Shown: one piece after another, positions 2,183-34,862 of the stretch
How positions within the stretch are numbered: the stretch's first letter is position 1
Layout of the letters: every line of letters begins with the position of its first letter
Assembly (NCBI GenBank): GCA_021781455.1
Contig: JAJXWV010000041.1
Span: 75,484 to 139,483, forward strand
DNA length: 64,000 nucleotides
DNA from: Acidobacteriota bacterium
GTDB lineage: Bacteria > Acidobacteriota > Thermoanaerobaculia > Gp7-AA8
Reading direction: 5' to 3'
The notes under the pieces: generated by a model
The model's input: the letters and a program-made list of their open reading frames with translations, nothing else
What the model was told of the DNA's origin: nothing
Database searches by the model: none
Translations under genes and position numbers: made by a program

Positions 2183-3406
2183 TCACTCGTAGCGGAGCGC
2201 TTCGATCGGGTCGAGCTTGGAGGCTTTGGCGGCTGGATAGATTCCGAAAAGAATGCCGAGAAAAGCGCAGAAGCCGAAGGCCAGGGCGATCGCCCAGATG
2301 GGCGTGTGCACCGGAGGCAGCTCGACGAACTTCTTCAGACCGAACCGGGCAGCTGTTGCCAGGCCGTAACCGCCGGCCACGCCAATGACGCCGCCGAGGG
2401 CCGAGAGGGCGATGGCTTCGATGAGGAACTGCACGAGCACGTCGCGCCGACGCGCCCCGATCGACTTGCGGATTCCGATCTCCCGGGTCCGTTCGGTGAC
2501 CGAGACCAGCATGATGTTCATGATCCCGATGCCGCCGACGAGCAGCGCGATGCCGACCACTGCGGCCATGATCAGCGTGATGTTCAGCAGCACGGTCGAG
2601 ATCGTCTTCATCAGCTCTTCCTGAGCGATGATGCGGAAATCGTTGGGATCGCCTTTCTTGAGGTGATGGCGGGCGCGAAGCACCTCGGTGACCTGCTCGC
2701 GCGCCAGATCGAGATCGCTGCCGGGGCGCATCTGGAACGCCAGCACGAGCTTGCGCATGTTCTCGCTCCCGAAGATCACCGTGGCGGTGGAGAACGGGAT
2801 CAGGACGATGTCGTCCTGGTTGTTTCCGAACGTGCCACCCTTCTTCTCCATGATTCCCACCACCGTGAAGGTGGTGTTATTGATCTGGATGAGCTTGCCG
2901 ATCGGATTGGTGCCGAGCTTGAGCTTCTCCACGACGTCCAGCCCGATCGTGCAGACGTCTTTGCGGCCATCCTGGTCGATGGGTGTGAAGAAGCGTCCGT
3001 GCTCGACCCAGTGGTTGACGATCTCCTGGTAGACGTCGCTGACCGCATACAACTGCACCTGGTGATGAGCGTCGCCGTACTTGAGCGAGGCGTTGGCGAT
3101 GTAGATGGGGGTGAACTCGCCGATGGCCGTCGTGGCGCGGCGCACGGCATTGGCGTCGTCGATGGTGAGGTCGGGCAGTTTCTGCAGAAACGGGTTCCGC
3201 TGCTCGCCGGGATCGGGATAGACCTCGATGAAGTTCGATCCGATGCCCTGCAGGTTCTGGGAGATGTTGTACTGCATTCCCTGGACGAGCGAAACGACGG
3301 CGATGACCGAAGCCACCCCGATCATGATGCCGAGCACGGTCAGGATCGAGCGGAGCTTGCTGGCCCAGATGGCACGCAGGGCGATCTTTATGTTTTCGAG
3401 GAGCAT
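2183..3406 (-). CDS. macB: MacB-type ABC transporter permease (FtsX fold, MacB periplasmic domain)
   Basis: MLLENIKIALRAIWASKLRSILTVLGIMIGVASVIAVVSL ... DPIEALRYE, the typical MacB/LolE permease architecture. Start is moved to Met at 3406 because the upstream 30 codons of the ORF-track model are the family A repeat translated (STQHSVLSTKK). The start is 5 nt after the stop of the four-helix-bundle gene. Confidence 0.85.
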   Translation of the reverse strand: MLLENIKIALRAIWASKLRSILTVLGIMIGVASVIAVVSLVQGMQYNISQNLQGIGSNFIEVYPDPGEQRNPFLQKLPDLTIDDANAVRRATTAIGEFTPIYIANASLKYGDAHHQVQLYAVSDVYQEIVNHWVEHGRFFTPIDQDGRKDVCTIGLDVVEKLKLGTNPIGKLIQINNTTFTVVGIMEKKGGTFGNNQDDIVLIPFSTATVIFGSENMRKLVLAFQMRPGSDLDLAREQVTEVLRARHHLKKGDPNDFRIIAQEELMKTISTVLLNITLIMAAVVGIALLVGGIGIMNIMLVSVTERTREIGIRKSIGARRRDVLVQFLIEAIALSALGGVIGVAGGYGLATAARFGLKKFVELPPVHTPIWAIALAFGFCAFLGILFGIYPAAKASKLDPIEALRYE

Positions 3407-26586: not shown

Positions 26587-28899
26587 TTACCGTCGCACCG
26601 GCCGGGATCGGGGCACGGCGTCGAGGTCGCGCAGGAATGCCCGCGGCGCGGCGCCGTACGGGCGCTCGATGCCGAGGCGAACGTACGCCAGGTACGCATG
26701 ATCGCCGGCGATGCAGAGAGAATCGCGGGACAGGACGATGGCGTTGTCGGCTCGTCCATCGAAGCGCAGCGCAATTGTGTCCGACTGCACAATCGACGCT
26801 TGCGCGTCGAGAGTGGCGCGATGGATCTCGATTCCGGTCGTCGTCATGACCGGCCAAGCAATCGTGTACGCCGATGCATTCCAGGCGATCGGAACGACGC
26901 CGGGAGCCACGCCGAAGAAATTCGCCGAGCCGGTCCAGATCGCGTGTCCGTTCTGCTGCGGCGTGCCGTCGAGCAGCTCGCCATTCCGCGAAACAGCGCT
27001 CGAGCGGACCGAGTAGCGTGCGTCCTGCAGCGGTTGGCTCATCCACGTGACGATGGCGCCGTCGCCGTTCGCAGCGATCGAAATGCTCTCCTGATCATCG
27101 GGATCGACCGCGATCGCGATTCCGCCCGGCGCGTCGAGCGGCCGGCCGTCCGCGGCGAATCGCCCGGCGTAGACGTCGCCTTGACTTGCGAGGGGACACT
27201 CGAACGGACAGTGGAGAATTCCGGGCTCGAGCTGCACCCAGCCGATCCAGTACATTGAGCCGTCGAACGCGATCGCGGGCTGCTGATGCCGCTGCGGACC
27301 GACTGTGATCGTGGAGGCATCATCGAGCGTTCCGTTCGCGCGCACGCGCCTGATCCGGATCTGTCCCGAACCGTCGGCAGCCTGCCAGGCCACGACCCAG
27401 TCGCGTCCGTCGCTCGCGACAACCGGGCTGTCCAAGCTCGCGGTCGTCTGCGCCCCCTCGTCGATGACGATGTCCGCCGTATCCAGCGGCACCGCGGATG
27501 TGGAGAAGCGGCGCGCTTTGACGCGGCAATTCTGCTGAGCGCCTTCTTCCCAGACGACGAGGTGCGCTATGCCATTGAATGCCGTCGATACCTGCACCGC
27601 GGTCGAGTTCCACGAGGTCGGGCGCAGGCCGGTCGCGATCCGAATGCCGTTGCCGGTCGCCGGGACGCCCTCCGCCGTCAGGTGGCCGACATACAGATCA
27701 GAATTGGCGAATGGACCATAGGCCGTACTGAATGGACGGTACTCGGACCACGCCGCGAACCATCCGTCAGGATCGCGCGAGATCGCTGGCGCGGTCTGGT
27801 ACGAGGCGCCGCTTGCCGCCGCAATGGCGGTGCCGGTTGTCAAATCGTCGTGCAGCAGTGCGACTCGAAAAATCCGGTCGGTCGACGTGACCCATGTGAC
27901 GAGCCGCGCGTCAGGCGAGATGCCGAACCCGGAGACGTGATCGGCGATGACCACAGGCGCTCCCACGGCAACCAGATTGCTGTCGAGTCTCTGCGCGGTA
28001 ACCGTGGCCTTGCTGTCGACCGAGAACACGGATGCCTCGCCATCTGAAGAGACGAGAGCCGAGACCGGCGGAACCGTAACTCTCGCCATAATCGTCCCGT
28101 CGCGCGCGATGCGGACGAGTTGTGGAGAGCCAGGCGGCCACCCAACCGCTGCTGACGCGATGATCCACGATACGCCGTCGAAAACGATAAGGTTGTTTGT
28201 GGTGCTCGACGCCGCGATCGTGATGCCAAGATTGCTGCCGTCCGGCCGCACGATGGCGCCGAGGGTCGATTGTGTGTCACCGTTCCAGACGACGAGAAAA
28301 TTGGTGCCGTCCGTCGACACTGCCACGCCGTCGCCGATCCACCCCTGCGTCCTTGCGATCGGCACGTCGGGGACGATGACGTTCAGATCGTCGTCGAGAA
28401 TCAGCGCGCTGATACTGTGGTAGAGGCTGTACGCAATCAGCAGCTGGCCGCCATTCCAGGCGATCGCAACACGGTCCTCGGTGCCACTCGCGAGCGGCGG
28501 CAGATAGTCGACGATTGCTCTCCTTTCGGCAACATTTCCCTGCGGCGTGACACGTGCGACCCAGATCTGTGAATCCAACCGGTCGTTCCAGACGACGACA
28601 TAGTCTCTGCCGTTCCACGCAACCGCCGGAGGAACATCGCTGTAGGCCGTCGTGATCGTCAGCGGAATGGGATCGAGGACCTCACCGCCGCCCGAGACGC
28701 GCGTCGCCACGATGGCGTAGCCGCGCGAAACGACGAGGTAGTCCTGCCCGTCGGTGGCGATGGCCGGAGTCAGGCCGGCTGCGACCGGCGCCGGCGCCAC
28801 AGTGGAAATCGGCCATTCGGTGCCCGCCGCGCTCATCGCGGTCGCGATCAGCGCAAAGAGAATCGCCCATCGGATGACCACACGTGGATTGTGGCTCAT
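26587..28899 (-). CDS. Secreted repeat protein, probably a multi-bladed beta-propeller (about 13 repeats of ~55 aa)
   Basis: Signal peptide MSHNPRVVIRWAILFALIATAMSAAG. The body is recurring modules with the motif DG/NG-x-D/N-[YFW]-x-VV-W (DGQDYLVVS, NGRDYVVVWND, DGTNFLVVWNGD, DGRDWVVAWQAADG, FNGIAHLVVWEEG, NGDGAIVTWMS ...). Confidence 0.6.
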   Translation of the reverse strand: MSHNPRVVIRWAILFALIATAMSAAGTEWPISTVAPAPVAAGLTPAIATDGQDYLVVSRGYAIVATRVSGGGEVLDPIPLTITTAYSDVPPAVAWNGRDYVVVWNDRLDSQIWVARVTPQGNVAERRAIVDYLPPLASGTEDRVAIAWNGGQLLIAYSLYHSISALILDDDLNVIVPDVPIARTQGWIGDGVAVSTDGTNFLVVWNGDTQSTLGAIVRPDGSNLGITIAASSTTNNLIVFDGVSWIIASAAVGWPPGSPQLVRIARDGTIMARVTVPPVSALVSSDGEASVFSVDSKATVTAQRLDSNLVAVGAPVVIADHVSGFGISPDARLVTWVTSTDRIFRVALLHDDLTTGTAIAAASGASYQTAPAISRDPDGWFAAWSEYRPFSTAYGPFANSDLYVGHLTAEGVPATGNGIRIATGLRPTSWNSTAVQVSTAFNGIAHLVVWEEGAQQNCRVKARRFSTSAVPLDTADIVIDEGAQTTASLDSPVVASDGRDWVVAWQAADGSGQIRIRRVRANGTLDDASTITVGPQRHQQPAIAFDGSMYWIGWVQLEPGILHCPFECPLASQGDVYAGRFAADGRPLDAPGGIAIAVDPDDQESISIAANGDGAIVTWMSQPLQDARYSVRSSAVSRNGELLDGTPQQNGHAIWTGSANFFGVAPGVVPIAWNASAYTIAWPVMTTTGIEIHRATLDAQASIVQSDTIALRFDGRADNAIVLSRDSLCIAGDHAYLAYVRLGIERPYGAAPRAFLRDLDAVPRSRPVRR

Positions 28900-29073
28900 G
28901 CCTCCGATTTCTACCGCATTCCGGAACGGCGCAGGTGCGAACCGCGTCACGAGACGTCGTGGTTGTCCGGGACGCCGCACACGTGTGCCTCCAAAGCGGT
29001 CCCCGCACCGGTCATCGTGGCCGCGTACTCATCGCTTGTGGTCCCGCTGGGGTTGATCCTGTCCGTGAATTCA

Positions 29074-29149
29074 CGTCGGGAATCTCCGCCTTTTGCGTTG
29101 CGCTATGCTGACGTTCATTGCCTCGGTGGCGGACGCTGCGAACTTACAG
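29074..29149 (+). pseudogene. Degenerate direct copy of the tRNA-Leu upstream region plus tRNA positions 1 to about 38 (att-like repeat or pseudo-tRNA)
   Basis: cgtcgggaatctccgcc-ttttgcgttgcgctatgctgacgttcattgcctcggtggcgga-cgctgcgaacttacag aligns with 33395-33498 (cgacgggaatctccgcgaactctctcaggcttttgcgttgcgttatcctgacgtccgttgcctcggtggcggaatggcagacgctgcggacttaaaatcc). It has one 13-nt and one 9-nt indel and is otherwise about 85% identical. Confidence 0.7.
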
Positions 29150-29229
29150 TAAAAAGCACAGCGCCGTCACGACATGACAGCAAACGCATCCGCTGGTAAT
29201 GGGCGACGCCGTCTTTCCCGTCCCGTCCA

Positions 29230-31620
29230 TCAGTGGAAAACGACTTCGTTTGTTGCGCCGACTCGCAGGTGCGGCAGGCCAGCGACGAGATACGGGACGG
29301 TAAACACGTCTGTGCCTGTGGCAAAGTCGTGCGGAAGGGACGCCGGATCCGGGCCCAGGATTACATCGACGATATCCGTTGTGTAGATGTCGTACACCTC
29401 AACAGCCGCCCGACCAATAAGCATGAACGGAGCACGCCGGAAACGCTGGTGCTGCGCAAACGCTGATTGTGGAATTCTCACACCGTTCACGACAAGCCCG
29501 ATAATCGCTGTCGATTGCTTTAGCGACGGCGCTACAGCGATTCGGATTGCTCTCGTCGCGCTGAGCCCTGGTGGAGCGATTTCAGTCGGGAGCCCGCCTG
29601 GATCAGCAGACACGGCCGGTATTACATAAAGTGGTGATGCACCGACAAGCACGGTGTACTCTGGAGCGCCATGGTTAAGATGAAACCGGATATCGCCGTT
29701 CTCATCGACAGCCGCGTGCTCGGTGACTGTTCCATCGGCCAGGCACCAGTATGCGAGACTGTACTTGCCAGTCCCAACATGGGCGTGGCGTTCGGCCGCA
29801 GGCCGCAAGGCGATGCTCACCTCCTGCACATCCTTAAGGATTTCGACCGTGTCGCACGCGGACTTATAGTTAGCGGCCTCCGCACAGATACGAGTAGTTT
29901 TCCCGGACGGCAGCGAGTCTACGACTACCCGTCCGTTCGAGTCCCGCTCTCCAGGCATCATGTATAGACCTTGGGTGTCACCCTTGTCTCGGAACACGGT
30001 CGCAATCGCTCTGGCGTCCGGGAGCGGTGATCCGGTTACTGCATCTGTGACCGTCACTTCGACCTTGTTGATTGGAACGTCGATATCGTAACCAGCCCCC
30101 GCCGCGACTTCACTTTCAGGAACGTGAATGTACTCGAACGAGTGATCGCAAGCCTTGACCTGAATGTTGGTCTTGCCGGGTGATGCAGTTAGGTAAGCGC
30201 CGTACTCGCCACTCGGTGTGGAAACGGCTGAACCCGTGCGGAATAAGAGTTGTGCGACGACCGGCTTTCCACCCCGCGTTATGCGGCCGGCGACGTAGAA
30301 ACCTCGTCCTGACATCGTCAGCCTGATTGATTCGCCAGGCGCAGTCTCGACGGTGTCCATAGCCGCGGTGTGCGAGCCACGTGAAACGGTGACTAGGTAA
30401 GCGCCGGGCGTCAGTCCAGCAAATTGCGTGACCGCGCTCGAAGCAGTAGCCCAGTCACCTCGCTTCTCCTGAATGACCGTGCACCGCTTCGGTGTATCCA
30501 CGGTCAGCCTGATCGAATGCAGGTATTTTCCGCAGTCGTATACGGCAATGTTCGGCCGCTCCGCCTGATCAGCGTTTGCCCGAAGAGGGTCGGTTACGGC
30601 ATCGCATGAGACTCGATTCGGTTGCGACCACCCAGCTATGTCCGTCACTGTCACGTCTAACGCCGAGCCAACGTGTACAGGTATCAGGTCCGAAATCACT
30701 AGTCCGCCCGGGGTAATACTGACCGGAACCTGCTGCGCAAGCCACCGAGCGCCGCCGATCAGAAGTGTGGCATCCCCGGGTGGAACGTCATCGAATACAA
30801 AGATGTTGTTTAGTAGATTCTGAGAATACATCGGCGCAAGAATTGGCGCGTGTGGACGACCGCGGCCATCCCTGAGTGTCACGTCGGGTACGGCTTGCTT
30901 GCCTAAGAGTGCCAAGAATTGCTGTGAGTAGAGCTGCGCGCACACAACTCCGCCTTCGGTGGTCGCCACCAGTCCTTGTCCTGTGAACGGGTCCACCGGG
31001 CGAAGCGCCGTCATGACGTACTGGGTGTTATTGATGGCGCGTACGAGCAGAGTCTTGCCCGCGCCGACGGTCGCCAAGCTTCCGATCCTCGTCGGCTTTC
31101 CTCCGTGAACGATGACGGGCAATAACGGTGTGTCTGCGGGCACCAGGATTGACGTCGCACCGCGGGGTACTGGAATCACAGCTCCGCGGTTCTTAGCCGT
31201 CTCCCCTTCAAGTATGGCCACGTCATCAGCGGTGGCCAAATCCTTGTTGACCACCGACAGGTCGAGAGTTGCAGCGGCCGCGAGATCGAGGCTGACTCCT
31301 TTCACAGCTTGCGCGTCGGTTGTACCGGTGATGAAACCGTGATTAGCACTGATCAACCCTCGCGGGTGACGCGCGTAAACACCGAAACCGTTAGGCGGAA
31401 TCTCAATGAGCTTATCTGCAGGCAGACAACGCACCTGACCAGCAGTAGCGAAAACGCTGAATGGGTTCGCCAGGTCCATGGGGTAAAAACAGACCTCGGA
31501 ACCCGGTAAACGTTCTCCGGCGTAGCGGATGCGAAAATCGACGCGCCCGTGGACCACGAGAGCGACGAGGGTAATCGCCACGGACATTGCGGATGCTTTG
31601 AGAGCCGTTCGACAGGTCAT
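29230..31620 (-). CDS. Large secreted hypothetical protein (796 aa)
   Basis: N-terminal signal anchor (AMSVAITLVALVVHG). No catalytic motif recognised. Noticeably lower GC than flanking housekeeping genes. Confidence 0.6.
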   Translation of the reverse strand: MTCRTALKASAMSVAITLVALVVHGRVDFRIRYAGERLPGSEVCFYPMDLANPFSVFATAGQVRCLPADKLIEIPPNGFGVYARHPRGLISANHGFITGTTDAQAVKGVSLDLAAAATLDLSVVNKDLATADDVAILEGETAKNRGAVIPVPRGATSILVPADTPLLPVIVHGGKPTRIGSLATVGAGKTLLVRAINNTQYVMTALRPVDPFTGQGLVATTEGGVVCAQLYSQQFLALLGKQAVPDVTLRDGRGRPHAPILAPMYSQNLLNNIFVFDDVPPGDATLLIGGARWLAQQVPVSITPGGLVISDLIPVHVGSALDVTVTDIAGWSQPNRVSCDAVTDPLRANADQAERPNIAVYDCGKYLHSIRLTVDTPKRCTVIQEKRGDWATASSAVTQFAGLTPGAYLVTVSRGSHTAAMDTVETAPGESIRLTMSGRGFYVAGRITRGGKPVVAQLLFRTGSAVSTPSGEYGAYLTASPGKTNIQVKACDHSFEYIHVPESEVAAGAGYDIDVPINKVEVTVTDAVTGSPLPDARAIATVFRDKGDTQGLYMMPGERDSNGRVVVDSLPSGKTTRICAEAANYKSACDTVEILKDVQEVSIALRPAAERHAHVGTGKYSLAYWCLADGTVTEHAAVDENGDIRFHLNHGAPEYTVLVGASPLYVIPAVSADPGGLPTEIAPPGLSATRAIRIAVAPSLKQSTAIIGLVVNGVRIPQSAFAQHQRFRRAPFMLIGRAAVEVYDIYTTDIVDVILGPDPASLPHDFATGTDVFTVPYLVAGLPHLRVGATNEVVFH

Positions 31621-31629
31621 CGGCAGATC

Positions 31630-32136
31630 TCAGCAGTTCTGGCAGAAGCACGCCCCGTGGATCTCGATTCCGTCCCTGCAATAGTTCAGATAGTACACTG
31701 ACTGGCACGAGCGGTTGTCGGGATAGGGCAACGATGGGTTGCACAGCCAAAACGCGTCGCAGGTAGTCGGAAAGCAGTTCGACAGCGGCGTGGCGGAGTC
31801 GGATTGTGGAGTTTGGTTCGCTGCAATGGTCGACCAGACTATATCAGTTTTGGCGGTCTCCGTGACTTTCGTTGAATGCCGCAGCCATACACTAGTGGCC
31901 TGTATTGGTTGAATTGGTACCAGTGGCGCCGGGATCGGCGACGTGAGCGAGGCGCGCCGACGCAGGCATAGCGGTGACTATGCTGAGGAGGCGCAACGAA
32001 GCTCACGGCGTCGAGACCAAGCCAGGTGGTACCAATTCAGCCGATACAGGCCACTAGGTGCGCCAGTCATGGTTGGCGTGACAATCAGAAGTGATATTGA
32101 TATTGCGAGGAGAACCATGATCTGCGATCTGTTCAT
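31630..32136 (-). pseudogene. Secreted Cys-rich protein gene interrupted by a single in-frame TAG (signal peptide 52 codons, TAG, then 115 codons with 10 Cys)
   Basis: RBS aaggaggg then ATG. MNRSQIMVLLAISISLLIVTPTMTGAPSGLYRLNWYHLAWSRRRELRCASSA - TAG (31980..31978) - SPLCLRRR...NCFPTTCDAFWLCNPSLPYPDNRSCQSVYYLNYCRDGIEIHGACFCQNC-stop, all in one frame. Coordinates and codon counts are consistent (507 nt). Confidence 0.5.
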
Positions 32137-32574
32137 GTTTCCCTCCTTGGTATGAGCTAACTGGTTGATGAGCGCTGTACCCCGGGCTGAACACAGTGAC
32201 GGAAGGAGTGCATGCCTGGCTAACGCCCGGCCGCACGCCCACAACATGGGATCTCCACCATAGGAGGATCGTGATACGCCGTACCGGTGGGCGTGAGGTC
32301 GCATGATGATCGCTTGTAGGACTCTCGCGTGGTATCGCCTGGTCGTTACTGTAAGGCATTCGGTGAGGACGCGGCGTGACGTGCTCGGCTGCTTCGGGAG
32401 ATCGGGATAGAGTTCGAAAATCCAACCCGTGAAACGGTTGTTGCCGATGAATTCTCCAACCGCGGACAGCGCCTGAAGCGTCGTCCGTTCGGTCGGAATC
32501 CCTGCCGCCACTCCGAATGACCTGGTGCCGCCGTCCCGCGTTGCAGAAGTCGACAACGCGCTGGGAATCTCGCC

Positions 32575-32964
32575 GTGGCGAACCTCCCGGTCCTCGACCT
32601 GAGCAAGTACCTCCTGACCGTCGAAAACGAGGGTGAGCTCTTCGAGTACGTTCTCCGCATCGCGAAGCATGAGGTGGCTCGTGATGGCGCTGTCGATGTC
32701 GGTGATGCGGAGATGCTCGACATTTCGCGATGGCTGCATCGACAAATTCGCCTCATCGAAAACGCGGAGAAGCCGCTTTCATTCAAACGGCTAAAGTCGA
32801 TCCTCTCGCGCTTCGAATCCACGTTCGCGCACCCGCACAAAGGCAATCGAATCGACATCTACCGCCACGGCAGATGGACGCAGGTTCATTACCGTGGCGA
32901 TGGCAGCGAGGTTCAGCGGAATACGATTCGAAAGATTCGGCAGGATCTCAAGCCTGAGCGATGA
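32575..32964 (+). CDS. Hypothetical protein. The C-terminal ~60 aa loosely resemble HicA-family mRNA-interferase toxins.
   Basis: KRLKSILSRFESTFAHPHKGNRIDIYRHG...GSEVQRNTIRKIRQDL resembles the HicA pattern K..I..L...G......GSH..F.HP.G....V..H.....GT...I.KQ.GL. The true start may be Met at 32713. No HicB-like partner is seen. Confidence 0.3.
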   Translation: MANLPVLDLSKYLLTVENEGELFEYVLRIAKHEVARDGAVDVGDAEMLDISRWLHRQIRLIENAEKPLSFKRLKSILSRFESTFAHPHKGNRIDIYRHGRWTQVHYRGDGSEVQRNTIRKIRQDLKPER

Positions 32965-33459
32965 CGATGGCAACGATTCGATGATCTTCTACGACGCTCG
33001 TGACCGAGTACCCGAATTCGTGCACAGATATCGCCGCACGCTCGACCGTCTCGCAAAGCTGTGAACGAGCAACATGAGCAACGAAGAAATCGTGAATGGC
33101 CCGCTTGCTCGTAGGAACGTCGGCGATTCGCTGCTGGCCGCGTGACCTGAAGGCGCTTTGAGCGGCGCCGGTCCGCCCTGCGACGGCGAATCTGTCATGC
33201 CGATTCTGGGTGAACTGGACCCTTCGCGAATGCTACATGCATTTTCGAGGCCGCCATGCCAATCGCGAGTCCTTGAAAAGCTGGGCATACCCACCTCGTC
33301 ACCGCGTTGTTATTGCGTCGAGTCGAGCGTCTGTACGAACACTGTCCGTGAATTGTTCTTGCTCTCGGCGAAACTCAGCATGAACAGACGCTACTCGCGA
33401 CGACGGGAATCTCCGCGAACTCTCTCAGGCTTTTGCGTTGCGTTATCCTGACGTCCGTT

Positions 33460-33547
33460 GCCTCGGTGGCGGAATGGCAGACGCTGCGGACTTAAAATCC
33501 GCTGCTCCGTGAGGGGCGTGCCGGTTCGAGTCCGGCCCGAGGCACCA
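33460..33547 (+). tRNA. tRNA-Leu (anticodon UAA), with long variable arm
   Basis: gcctcgg tg gcgg aatggcag acgc t gcgga cttaaaa tccgc + 17-nt variable arm + gccgg ttcgagt ccggc ccgaggc a cca. Cloverleaf folds with T-loop TTCGAGT and encoded CCA. Confidence 0.85.

Positions 33548-33686: not shown

Positions 33687-34862
<1,176 letters not shown>

What the first reader, a model, noticed from the sequence alone, without database searches (positions are those of the whole stretch)
31630..32136. Secreted cysteine-rich protein gene with a single in-frame TAG between signal peptide and Cys-rich domain
A strong RBS (aaggaggg) and ATG start a 52-codon ORF with a textbook signal peptide. It ends at a TAG, and the same frame stays open for a further 115 codons.

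The last 50 residues contain 8 Cys (NCFPTTCDAFWLCNPSLPYPDNRSCQSVYYLNYCRDGIEIHGACFCQNC), as in disulfide-rich toxins, bacteriocin-like peptides or knottin-like domains. The frame stops 10 nt before the start of the large secreted gene downstream.

It is either a freshly inactivated gene (a nonsense mutation in an island gene), a sequencing error, or a case of stop-codon read-through. The ORF track missed it because the downstream part has no ATG.
Basis: seen in the sequence. Interest (0 to 1): 0.55.

Follow-up and report, generated by a model that had tools for sequence, protein, structure and literature searches.

The report
Mobile hairpin element interrupting secreted-protein gene
The "in-frame TAG" is not a point mutation or recoding: a 160-base mobile hairpin element (a MITE derived from IS630-type insertion sequences) has jumped into a small secreted cysteine-rich protein gene and carries the stop codon with it, which is an ordinary way for a gene to be knocked out.

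Summary
On the minus strand there is an RBS, an ATG at 32136, 52 codons, a TAG at 31980-31978, 115 more open codons and a TGA at 31632-31630. The last 50 residues contain 8 Cys.

The interpretation needs revising. The TAG lies in the loop of a 166-nt near-perfect hairpin (31892-32057; 57-nt inverted arms; dG -103 kcal/mol, z -8.5) with CTAG at both ends. About 90%-identical copies lie at unrelated loci in Thermoanaerobaculia MAGs and soil metagenomes, usually directly on the TAG stop codon of a gene.

The element's termini match those of annotated IS630-family insertion sequences. One related locus fuses its left part to the 3' end of an IS630-family transposase gene. IS630 inserts at TA within CTAG.

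The net insertion is 162 nt, exactly 54 codons, so the two gene halves stay in frame. Removing it gives a 114-aa protein. Its only three homologues among billions of proteins are uninterrupted 106-107-aa proteins with the same architecture. At least one sits directly upstream of a homologue of the window's 796-aa gene.

Two other assemblies carry the same TAG, and TAG is a normal stop in this window.

Verdict: a gene disrupted by a MITE. It is a new member of a known kind and of modest interest.

The parts
32141..32148 (-). Shine-Dalgarno-like AAGGAGGG, 4 nt upstream of the ATG
   Evidence: Read directly from the sequence.
32058..32136 (-). 5' fragment of the small gene: ATG and a signal-peptide-like N-terminus (MNRSQIMVLLAISISLLIVTPTMTGAP)
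   Evidence: Translation. It aligns with the N-terminal hydrophobic segments of P0002 and P0003. The signal-peptide call is by eye only, from a charged n-region and a hydrophobic core.
31892..32057 (.). Palindromic MITE with its CTAG borders. Under the IS630 model the element proper is 31895-32054 (160 nt), flanked by duplicated TA at 32056-32055 and 31894-31893. The net insertion is 162 nt, or 54 codons.
   Evidence: - Inverted repeat.
- Hairpin with dG -103 kcal/mol, z -8.5.
- About 90%-identical copies in L001, L002, L007, L009 and L010.
- Termini align with IS630-family IS ends.
32001..32057 (.). Left arm of the inverted repeat, in gene orientation
   Evidence: 57 nt, 77% complementary to the other arm.
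31892..31948 (.). Right arm of the inverted repeat
31978..31980 (-). The in-frame TAG, located in the loop region of the element
   Evidence: The same ...CA(T/G)AGTCACC... TAG occurs in the copies in L001, L007, L009 and L010, and is TAT in L002.
31630..31891 (-). 3' fragment of the small gene: a linker and the 8-Cys domain ending DGIEIHGACFCQNC, with TGA at 31632-31630
   Evidence: - Homology to P0002 (E 7e-8) and P0003 (E 2e-6) in a library of 1.8 billion proteins.
- All 8 Cys are invariant.
- GC at codon positions 1/2/3 is 0.43/0.52/0.72.
29230..31620 (-). Downstream 796-aa gene for a probable secreted protein (weak CarboxypepD_reg match), the conserved partner of the small gene
   Evidence: - Pfam match.
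- A homologue lies directly downstream of P0002 on L003 (tblastn 32% over 523 aa, E 3e-67).

Best explanation
A small operon gene encodes a 114-aa secreted protein: a signal peptide, a linker of about 35 aa and a C-terminal 8-Cys domain. A non-autonomous transposable element, a MITE of about 160 nt, has interrupted it.

The element is a near-complete palindrome. Its terminal repeats are those of a subgroup of IS630-family insertion sequences, so it is presumably moved in trans by such a transposase (inferred). As in IS630, it inserted at the TA of a CTAG, here cac-CTAG-tgt, 2-3 codons after the likely signal-peptide cleavage site, and duplicated the TA.

The net gain is 162 nt, or 54 codons. 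That is why the upstream and downstream parts are in the same frame. The element happens to be open in that frame except for one TAG in its loop.

Translation from the ATG therefore ends after 52 residues. The Cys-rich domain has no start codon or signal peptide of its own, so the gene is most likely a recent pseudogene. All 8 Cys and the conserved C-terminal motif are still intact, and both CTAG borders are perfect.

Further consequences are likely but only inferred. Translational coupling to the tightly spaced 796-aa downstream gene may be lost. The mRNA also carries a very stable hairpin.
For: Shown:
1. The 57-nt inverted arms and the full-length hairpin.
2. Related copies at unrelated loci:
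   - Two Thermoanaerobaculia MAGs and three contigs of one metagenome, about 90% identical, bounded by the same TGGCCTGTAT...ATACAGGCCA termini.
   - In 4 of the 5 other loci examined (three of these copies and the related 350-nt L006 element) the terminal (C/T)TAG is the stop codon of a plausible gene: UspA-like, CBS, DapF-like or S41-peptidase-like.
3. The link to IS630:
   - L009 joins the element's left ~120 nt to the last ~70 codons of a transposase. That fragment is 67% identical to an annotated 'IS630 family transposase' and gives a weak sub-threshold Pfam DDE_3 match. Most of its database homologues carry DDE_3.
   - The MITE ends align with both ends of that annotated IS, which is also flanked by CTAG.
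   - The preference of IS630 for TA in 5'-CTAG-3' is stated in the title of Tenzen & Ohtsubo 1991, cited in PMC2170065.
4. The arithmetic: 166 - 4 = 162 = 54 x 3 (sequence).
5. The homologues:
   - P0002, P0003 and P0004 are single 106-107-aa ORFs with no stop or insert.
   - P0002 lies directly upstream of a homologue of the 796-aa gene.
6. Identical sequence in other assemblies.
7. TAG is a normal stop in this window.
Against: - No empty-site allele of this locus was found, so the insertion and the TA duplication are inferred, not observed. A search with the reconstructed protein found nothing.
- Only one copy of the element lies in the 64-kb window, and no IS630-type transposase is in the window.
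- Copy number and presence of an autonomous partner in this genome are unknown.
- Flanks of some other copies are not clean TA/CTAG on both sides (L002 CTGG/CTAG, L010 GGCG/CTAG).
- Only four full-length copies were recovered, because the collection scans need exact patterns.
- Loss of function is inferred from sequence only.
Confidence: 0.87

Rival explanations
1. A simple nonsense point mutation in an otherwise intact gene of about 168 codons.
For: A single TAG is the only stop in a 168-codon frame.
Against: - Homologues are 106-107 aa and lack the 54 codons around the TAG.
- Those codons are a palindromic repeat found at unrelated loci, and the TAG is part of it in 5 of 6 copies.
Confidence: 0.03
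2. Sequencing or assembly artefact: either a wrong base at the TAG, or the element chimerically assembled into the gene.
For: Three short-read contigs all terminate inside the element, which shows that it troubles assemblers.
Against: - L012 and L016 are 100% identical to the window, both include the TAG, and they overlap each other by 113 nt across the element's centre.
- The left junction is confirmed by L016, and the right junction by L011 and L012.
- It is not known whether these assemblies come from independent samples.
Confidence: 0.02
3. The gene is still functional. The TAG is read through or suppressed, giving a secreted protein with a 54-residue element-encoded insert, as with Rickettsia palindromic elements that are translated in frame.
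For: - The insertion is exactly in frame and lies in a poorly conserved linker just after the signal peptide.
- In-frame translated palindromic elements are known in Rickettsia (review PMC10969869).
- The L002 copy of the element has TAT instead of TAG, so some copies are fully open in this frame.
Against: - TAG terminates ordinary genes in the window, for example the acyl-CoA dehydrogenase gene ending at 34862.
- No recoding signal or machinery was seen.
- A -103 kcal/mol hairpin lies in the mRNA.
- The insert adds two unpaired-looking Cys to an 8-Cys protein.
Confidence: 0.05
4. The hairpin element is a REP/REPIN-type or other structured regulatory element mobilised by a RAYT/IS200-like enzyme, or a domesticated cis-regulatory RNA, rather than an IS630-derived MITE.
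For: - The element is a long hairpin usually found just after stop codons, like REPs.
- One stem position shows compensatory changes among four copies.
- The left flanks of copies are more variable than the right ends.
Against: - The termini align with IS630-family IS ends, and a hybrid with an IS630 transposase 3' end exists.
- There is no Rfam match.
- At 166 nt, conserved over its whole length, it is unlike 20-40-nt REPs.
- No RAYT gene was seen, although this was not searched for specifically.
Confidence: 0.04

Closest known systems
IS630 / Tc1-mariner-derived MITEs of bacteria (non-autonomous elements mobilised by IS630-family DDE transposases)
   Same: - It is short (160 nt) and non-coding, with terminal inverted repeats and dispersed copies.
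- The borders are CTAG, consistent with TA duplication.
- The termini (TA)GTGGnCnGTAA/T... are shared with an annotated IS630-family IS of Caballeronia and with transposase remnants in L009, L013 and L014.
   Different: - The whole element is one long palindrome, not just its termini.
- This particular family is not in Rfam or the plasmid collection.
- No autonomous partner with identical ends was recovered.
Rickettsia palindromic elements (RPEs)
   Same: It is a palindromic element of about 150 nt inserted in frame inside a protein-coding gene (PMC10969869).
   Different: RPE inserts are open and translated with the host protein. Here the element carries an in-frame TAG that truncates the protein after the signal peptide.
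Neisseria Correia elements / enterobacterial ERIC elements
   Same: - These are 100-160-nt imperfect palindromes with TIRs.
- Correia elements show TA duplication (from general knowledge).
- They are usually found in transcribed intergenic regions close to gene ends and form long RNA hairpins.
   Different: No sequence relationship was tested or seen. Those families are high-copy in their hosts, and the copy number here is unknown.
Small disulfide-rich secreted bacterial proteins (bacteriocin-like or knottin-like)
   Same: The reconstructed protein and its three homologues have a signal peptide and a 45-50-residue C-terminal domain with 8 invariant Cys.
   Different: - There is no Pfam or NCBIfam match.
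- The AlphaFold model was unusable (pLDDT 46.8).
- The family has only four known members.
- In three of the four members, and possibly L004, the gene is tightly followed by another gene. That gene is a homologue of the 796-aa gene in the one case where this could be tested (L003).

Membership tests
MITE derived from an IS630-family insertion sequence | Terminal inverted repeats on a short element with no transposase gene | tested here: met
   The arms are 57 nt long, at 31892-31948 and 32001-32057. The element is 166 nt and contains only spurious short ORFs.
MITE derived from an IS630-family insertion sequence | Multiple copies at unrelated genomic sites | tested here: met
   Copies lie in L001, L002, L007, L009 and L010 with unrelated flanks. 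The window holds only one copy, and the copy number in the source genome was not measurable.
MITE derived from an IS630-family insertion sequence | Terminal repeats shared with an autonomous IS of that family | tested here: met
   - The ends align with the IRL and IRR of the annotated IS630-family IS on Caballeronia pSBC1_3 and with the transposase-3'-end remnants in L009, L013 and L014.
- L009 is a MITE/transposase-remnant hybrid.
- A full-length partner with identical ends was not found.
MITE derived from an IS630-family insertion sequence | TA target-site duplication, preferentially within CTAG | tested here: inconclusive
   - The window and L007 copies have CTAG on both sides.
- L002 and L006 differ at 1-2 bases, and L010 does not fit.
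- A net length of 162 nt, as required to keep the gene in frame, fits the TA/CTAG model.
- No empty site is available.
MITE derived from an IS630-family insertion sequence | Mobilisation in trans by the cognate transposase | not testable with these tools
   This needs a transposition assay or population data.
Programmed stop-codon read-through / TAG recoding | The stop lies at a conserved position in homologues, or the codon is reassigned in the genome | tested here: not met
   Homologues have no stop and no corresponding segment. TAG ends 7 of 34 long ORFs in the window.
In-frame translated palindromic elements (RPE-like) | The element length is a multiple of 3 and is open in the host gene's frame | tested here: not met
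   The length is 162 nt, or 54 codons (criterion met), but an in-frame TAG lies at 31980-31978.
REP / REPIN elements | Short (20-40 nt) REP palindromes in doublets, very high copy number, and an associated RAYT gene | tested here: inconclusive
   The hairpin form and the position after stop codons resemble REPINs. However, the element is conserved over all 166 nt and its ends match IS630-type IS ends. RAYT genes were not searched for.
Known Cys-rich secreted protein families (Pfam / NCBIfam) | A significant profile match | tested here: not met
   No family matched at E <= 1 in Pfam or at E <= 0.1 in NCBIfam.

The most novel reading that the evidence does not exclude
Two readings remain open that are more novel than 'a gene broken by a MITE'.

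(a) The small 8-Cys secreted protein and its tightly coupled large secreted partner form a previously undescribed two-gene secreted system. The small-protein family has only four known members in about 15 billion proteins. The system could be, for example, a disulfide-rich effector or bacteriocin with its carrier or processing protein, and it is caught here at the moment of being switched off.

(b) This IS630 subgroup and its MITEs are adapted to settle exactly on TAG stop codons. The transposase's own stop codon is the terminal TAG of the element, which makes them near-neutral passengers at gene ends.
Probability: 0.2. Interest if true: 0.5.

Novelty: new member of a known kind. Interest (0 to 1): 0.25.

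Why it matters
- It turns an apparent recoding or nonsense puzzle into a clear annotation: a pseudogene created by a mobile element.
- It documents an apparently undescribed MITE family in Thermoanaerobaculia (Acidobacteriota), with evidence for its IS630 ancestry and CTAG targeting.
- It shows why the locus breaks short-read assemblies.
- It flags a very rare Cys-rich secreted protein family with a conserved large partner gene, which could be worth expressing from the reconstructed sequence.
- None of this challenges current understanding.

Tried and rejected
- Word-index search with the reconstructed 114-aa protein found no hits. The exhaustive HMMER search was needed to find homologues.
- P0001, a 610-aa protein with 10 Cys-containing repeats, was the top hit. 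I judged it compositional or pattern similarity, not a family member.
- Pfam and NCBIfam on the small protein, the 796-aa protein and the 129-aa upstream ORF gave nothing beyond a sub-threshold CarboxypepD_reg match. PDB sequence search on the 796-aa protein gave only noise.
- AlphaFold2 on the mature domain with a 4-sequence alignment gave pLDDT 46.8, so no fold search was run.
- The 796-aa and neighbouring 797-aa ORFs are not paralogues.
- Rfam gave nothing for the element at gathering or E <= 1 thresholds. Plasmid blastn and a viral-contig scan also gave nothing.
- The promoter/terminator scan of 31400-33500 found no sites.
- Look-up of the 52-aa truncated product found nothing on record.
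- The search for an empty-site allele via exact look-ups of the two flanking genes found only contigs that carry the element.
- L008 is probably a chance 22-mer match inside a coding region.
- Stop-codon 'parking' is only weakly supported statistically: 4 of 5 loci versus at most 5 of 15 background CTAG sites, P about 0.045. It could reflect purifying selection rather than targeting.

Full report
**1. The observation**

The feature lies on the minus strand.
- AAGGAGGG at 32148-32141 is followed after 4 nt by ATG at 32136.
- The ORF reads MNRSQIMVLLAISISLLIVTPTMTGAPSGLYRLNWYHLAWSRRRELRCASSA and stops at TAG (31980-31978).
- The same frame then stays open for 115 codons, to TGA at 31632-31630.
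- It ends with ...NCFPTTCDAFWLCNPSLPYPDNRSCQSVYYLNYCRDGIEIHGACFCQNC, which has 8 Cys.
- The ATG of a 796-aa ORF (29230-31620) follows 9 nt later.

So the description is accurate.

**2.

A repeat search shows a 57-nt inverted repeat with arms at 31892-31948 and 32001-32057.
- The whole 166-nt stretch folds as one long hairpin, with dG -103 kcal/mol and z = -8.5 against shuffles.
- It begins and ends with CTAG.
- The TAG sits in its loop.
- The element starts 2-3 codons after the likely signal-peptide cleavage region (...TMTGAP|S).
- 166 minus one CTAG is 162 nt, which is exactly 54 codons. This explains why the frames on either side coincide.
- Removing it gives a 114-aa protein: MNRSQIMVLLAISISLLIVTPTMTGAPSVWLRHSTKV...CFCQNC.

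**3. The element is a dispersed repeat**

Pattern scans of the genome and metagenome collections, followed by nhmmer and alignment, recovered related copies.
- Full-length copies, about 90% identical: L002 (a Thermoanaerobaculia MAG), L007 and L010.
- Truncated copies: L001 (another Thermoanaerobaculia MAG) and L009.
- L006 carries a 350-nt relative with the same termini.
- The flanks of all these copies are unrelated to one another.
- The loop TAG is present in 5 of 6 copies. L002 has TAT.
- In four of five other loci the terminal (C/T)TAG of the element is the stop codon of a plausible gene: UspA-like, CBS-domain, DapF-like or S41-peptidase-like.

CTAG is rare in the window: 17 occurrences against 46-214 expected, and two of the 17 are the element's own borders. 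The stop-codon association is only weakly significant against background CTAGs. It may simply reflect survival of harmless insertions.

There is no Rfam match, no plasmid match and no viral-contig match.

**4. Which transposon family**

L009 is informative. There, the left ~120 nt of the element is joined to an ORF fragment...YSSWLNQVEIWFSKIERDVISRGVFTSIPDLRRKLMNYITRYNDQSRPIRWSY...FTGH*, and then to the terminal ...ACAGGCCACTAG.
- That fragment gives only a weak, sub-threshold Pfam DDE_3 match (E 0.005, 17.2 bits against a cut-off of 28.6).
- It has 194 database relatives. Most of those listed carry PF13358, and many are named transposase.
- It is 67% identical to the C-terminus of an annotated 'IS630 family transposase' on Caballeronia plasmid pSBC1_3.
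- That IS is itself bounded by CTAGTGGACTGTAAC... and ...GTTACGGCCCACTAG. These ends align with the MITE ends, CTAGTGGCCTGTAT....

IS630 is known to insert at TA within 5'-CTAG-3' (Tenzen & Ohtsubo 1991, cited in PMC2170065). The element is therefore best classed as an IS630-family-derived MITE: 160 nt proper, at 31895-32054, flanked by duplicated TA.

No transposase of this type is in the window.

**5. The interrupted gene is real**

An exhaustive HMMER search with the 86-aa C-terminal part found P0002 (106 aa, E 7e-8) and P0003 (107 aa, E 2e-6). A profile search added P0004 (106 aa).
- All three are single ORFs with a signal-peptide-like N-terminus, a variable linker, and the same 8-Cys domain ending DGI(E/Q)IHGACFC(Q/S)(D/N)C.
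- All 8 Cys are invariant.
- None has a stop or an extra 54 residues.
- P0002 lies immediately upstream of a homologue of the window's 796-aa protein (32% identity over 523 aa, E 3e-67).
- In L005 another gene follows within 2 nt, but only its first 38 residues are on the contig. In L004 an unannotated ORF with a signal-peptide-like start overlaps the stop (TGATG). Neither gave a tblastn match to the 796-aa protein.
- The family has no Pfam or NCBIfam model, and AlphaFold gave no usable model.
- In the Cys-rich part of the window gene, GC at codon positions 1/2/3 is 0.43/0.52/0.72.

**6. Error and recoding**

- Contigs from three other assemblies are 100% identical to the window: L011 (Logan SRR17201898), L012 (ENA ERZ27236866) and L016 (NCBI GCA_027325785.1).
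- L012 and L016 include the TAG, and together they cover both junctions.
- All three contigs end inside the element.
- TAG terminates 7 of 34 long ORFs in the window, so there is no sign of reassignment.

**7. Mechanism and consequences**

Shown:
- The element, its copies elsewhere and its IS630-type ends.
- The in-frame 162-nt gain.
- The uninterrupted homologues.

Inferred:
- Mobilisation in trans by an IS630-family transposase, with TA duplication.
- A recent event, given that both CTAG borders are perfect, the downstream ORF is intact and all family-invariant residues are kept.
- Loss of the secreted Cys-rich product. The domain has no own start or signal peptide, and the only in-frame TTG gives a 33-aa fragment.
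- A possible polar or uncoupling effect on the 796-aa gene, whose start has no obvious SD and lies 9 nt after the small gene's stop.

**8. Comparison and novelty**

This works like other bacterial MITE insertions. It resembles Rickettsia RPEs in being an in-frame palindromic insert (PMC10969869), but unlike RPEs it carries a stop.

It is a new member of a known kind: an undescribed IS630-derived MITE family in Thermoanaerobaculia, and a gene knocked out by it. The rare Cys-rich protein with its large partner is the only part with some discovery potential.

The source organism is inferred to be a Thermoanaerobaculia-like acidobacterium, and only from where the related element copies occur.

**9. 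Verdict**

Interest is 0.25.

Noticed in passing
L009 3863-4188: Hybrid element: about 120 nt identical to the MITE's left part, fused to the last ~70 codons of an IS630-family transposase gene and its terminal repeat. It looks like an internally deleted IS or a recombinant, and it links the MITE to its parent family.
   Followed up: yes
L009 3863-3880; L013 ~3255-3270; L014 ~916-931; L015 1695-1710: In these IS630 relatives the transposase ORF runs through the right terminal repeat, and its stop codon is the terminal TAG of ...CCACTAG. The element's end therefore supplies a stop codon at the very boundary.
   Followed up: partly
L006 1093-1444: A 350-nt element with the same termini as the MITE but a different, also highly structured-looking, GC-rich interior. 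It sits directly on the stop codon of a DapF-like gene.
   Followed up: no
window 31919 and 32031 (ends of contigs L011, L016 and L012): Three short-read contigs identical to the window all terminate inside the element, at the GGTACC of one arm. The repeat or hairpin breaks assemblies here, and heterogeneity in the population (with or without the insert) is not excluded.
   Followed up: partly
window 29000-33500; tRNA-Leu(TAA) at 33460-33547: A segment of about 4.5 kb has 58% GC against about 65% around it. It holds the 796-aa gene, the interrupted small gene and a 129-aa orphan ORF (32575-32964, +), and it abuts a tRNA-Leu gene. It may be an islet, but no integrase or direct repeat was looked for.
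   Followed up: no
window 26587-28980 (-): A 797-aa ORF with no Pfam or NCBIfam match, and not a paralogue of the 796-aa protein. It follows the 796-aa gene in the window and on contigs L011 and L012.
   Followed up: partly
window, whole: CTAG is strongly under-represented: 17 occurrences in 64 kb, against 46 expected from a Markov model and 214 from base composition.
   Followed up: partly
L005 747-1145: In one homologous locus a MerR-family regulator gene lies just upstream of the small Cys-rich gene (P0004). No counterpart was seen upstream in the window.
   Followed up: no
P0001 (610 aa): The top HMMER hit is a protein with about 10 tandem Cys-containing repeats (CNPAHQYPDGQxC...) and a hydrophobic C-terminus, eukaryote-like in appearance. 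The similarity to the window's PYPDNRSC region is probably pattern-level only.
   Followed up: no
alignment A5, columns 18/150: One stem position of the element shows C-G, A-U and U-A in different copies. This is a hint that the palindrome is maintained, but it rests on only four sequences.
   Followed up: no
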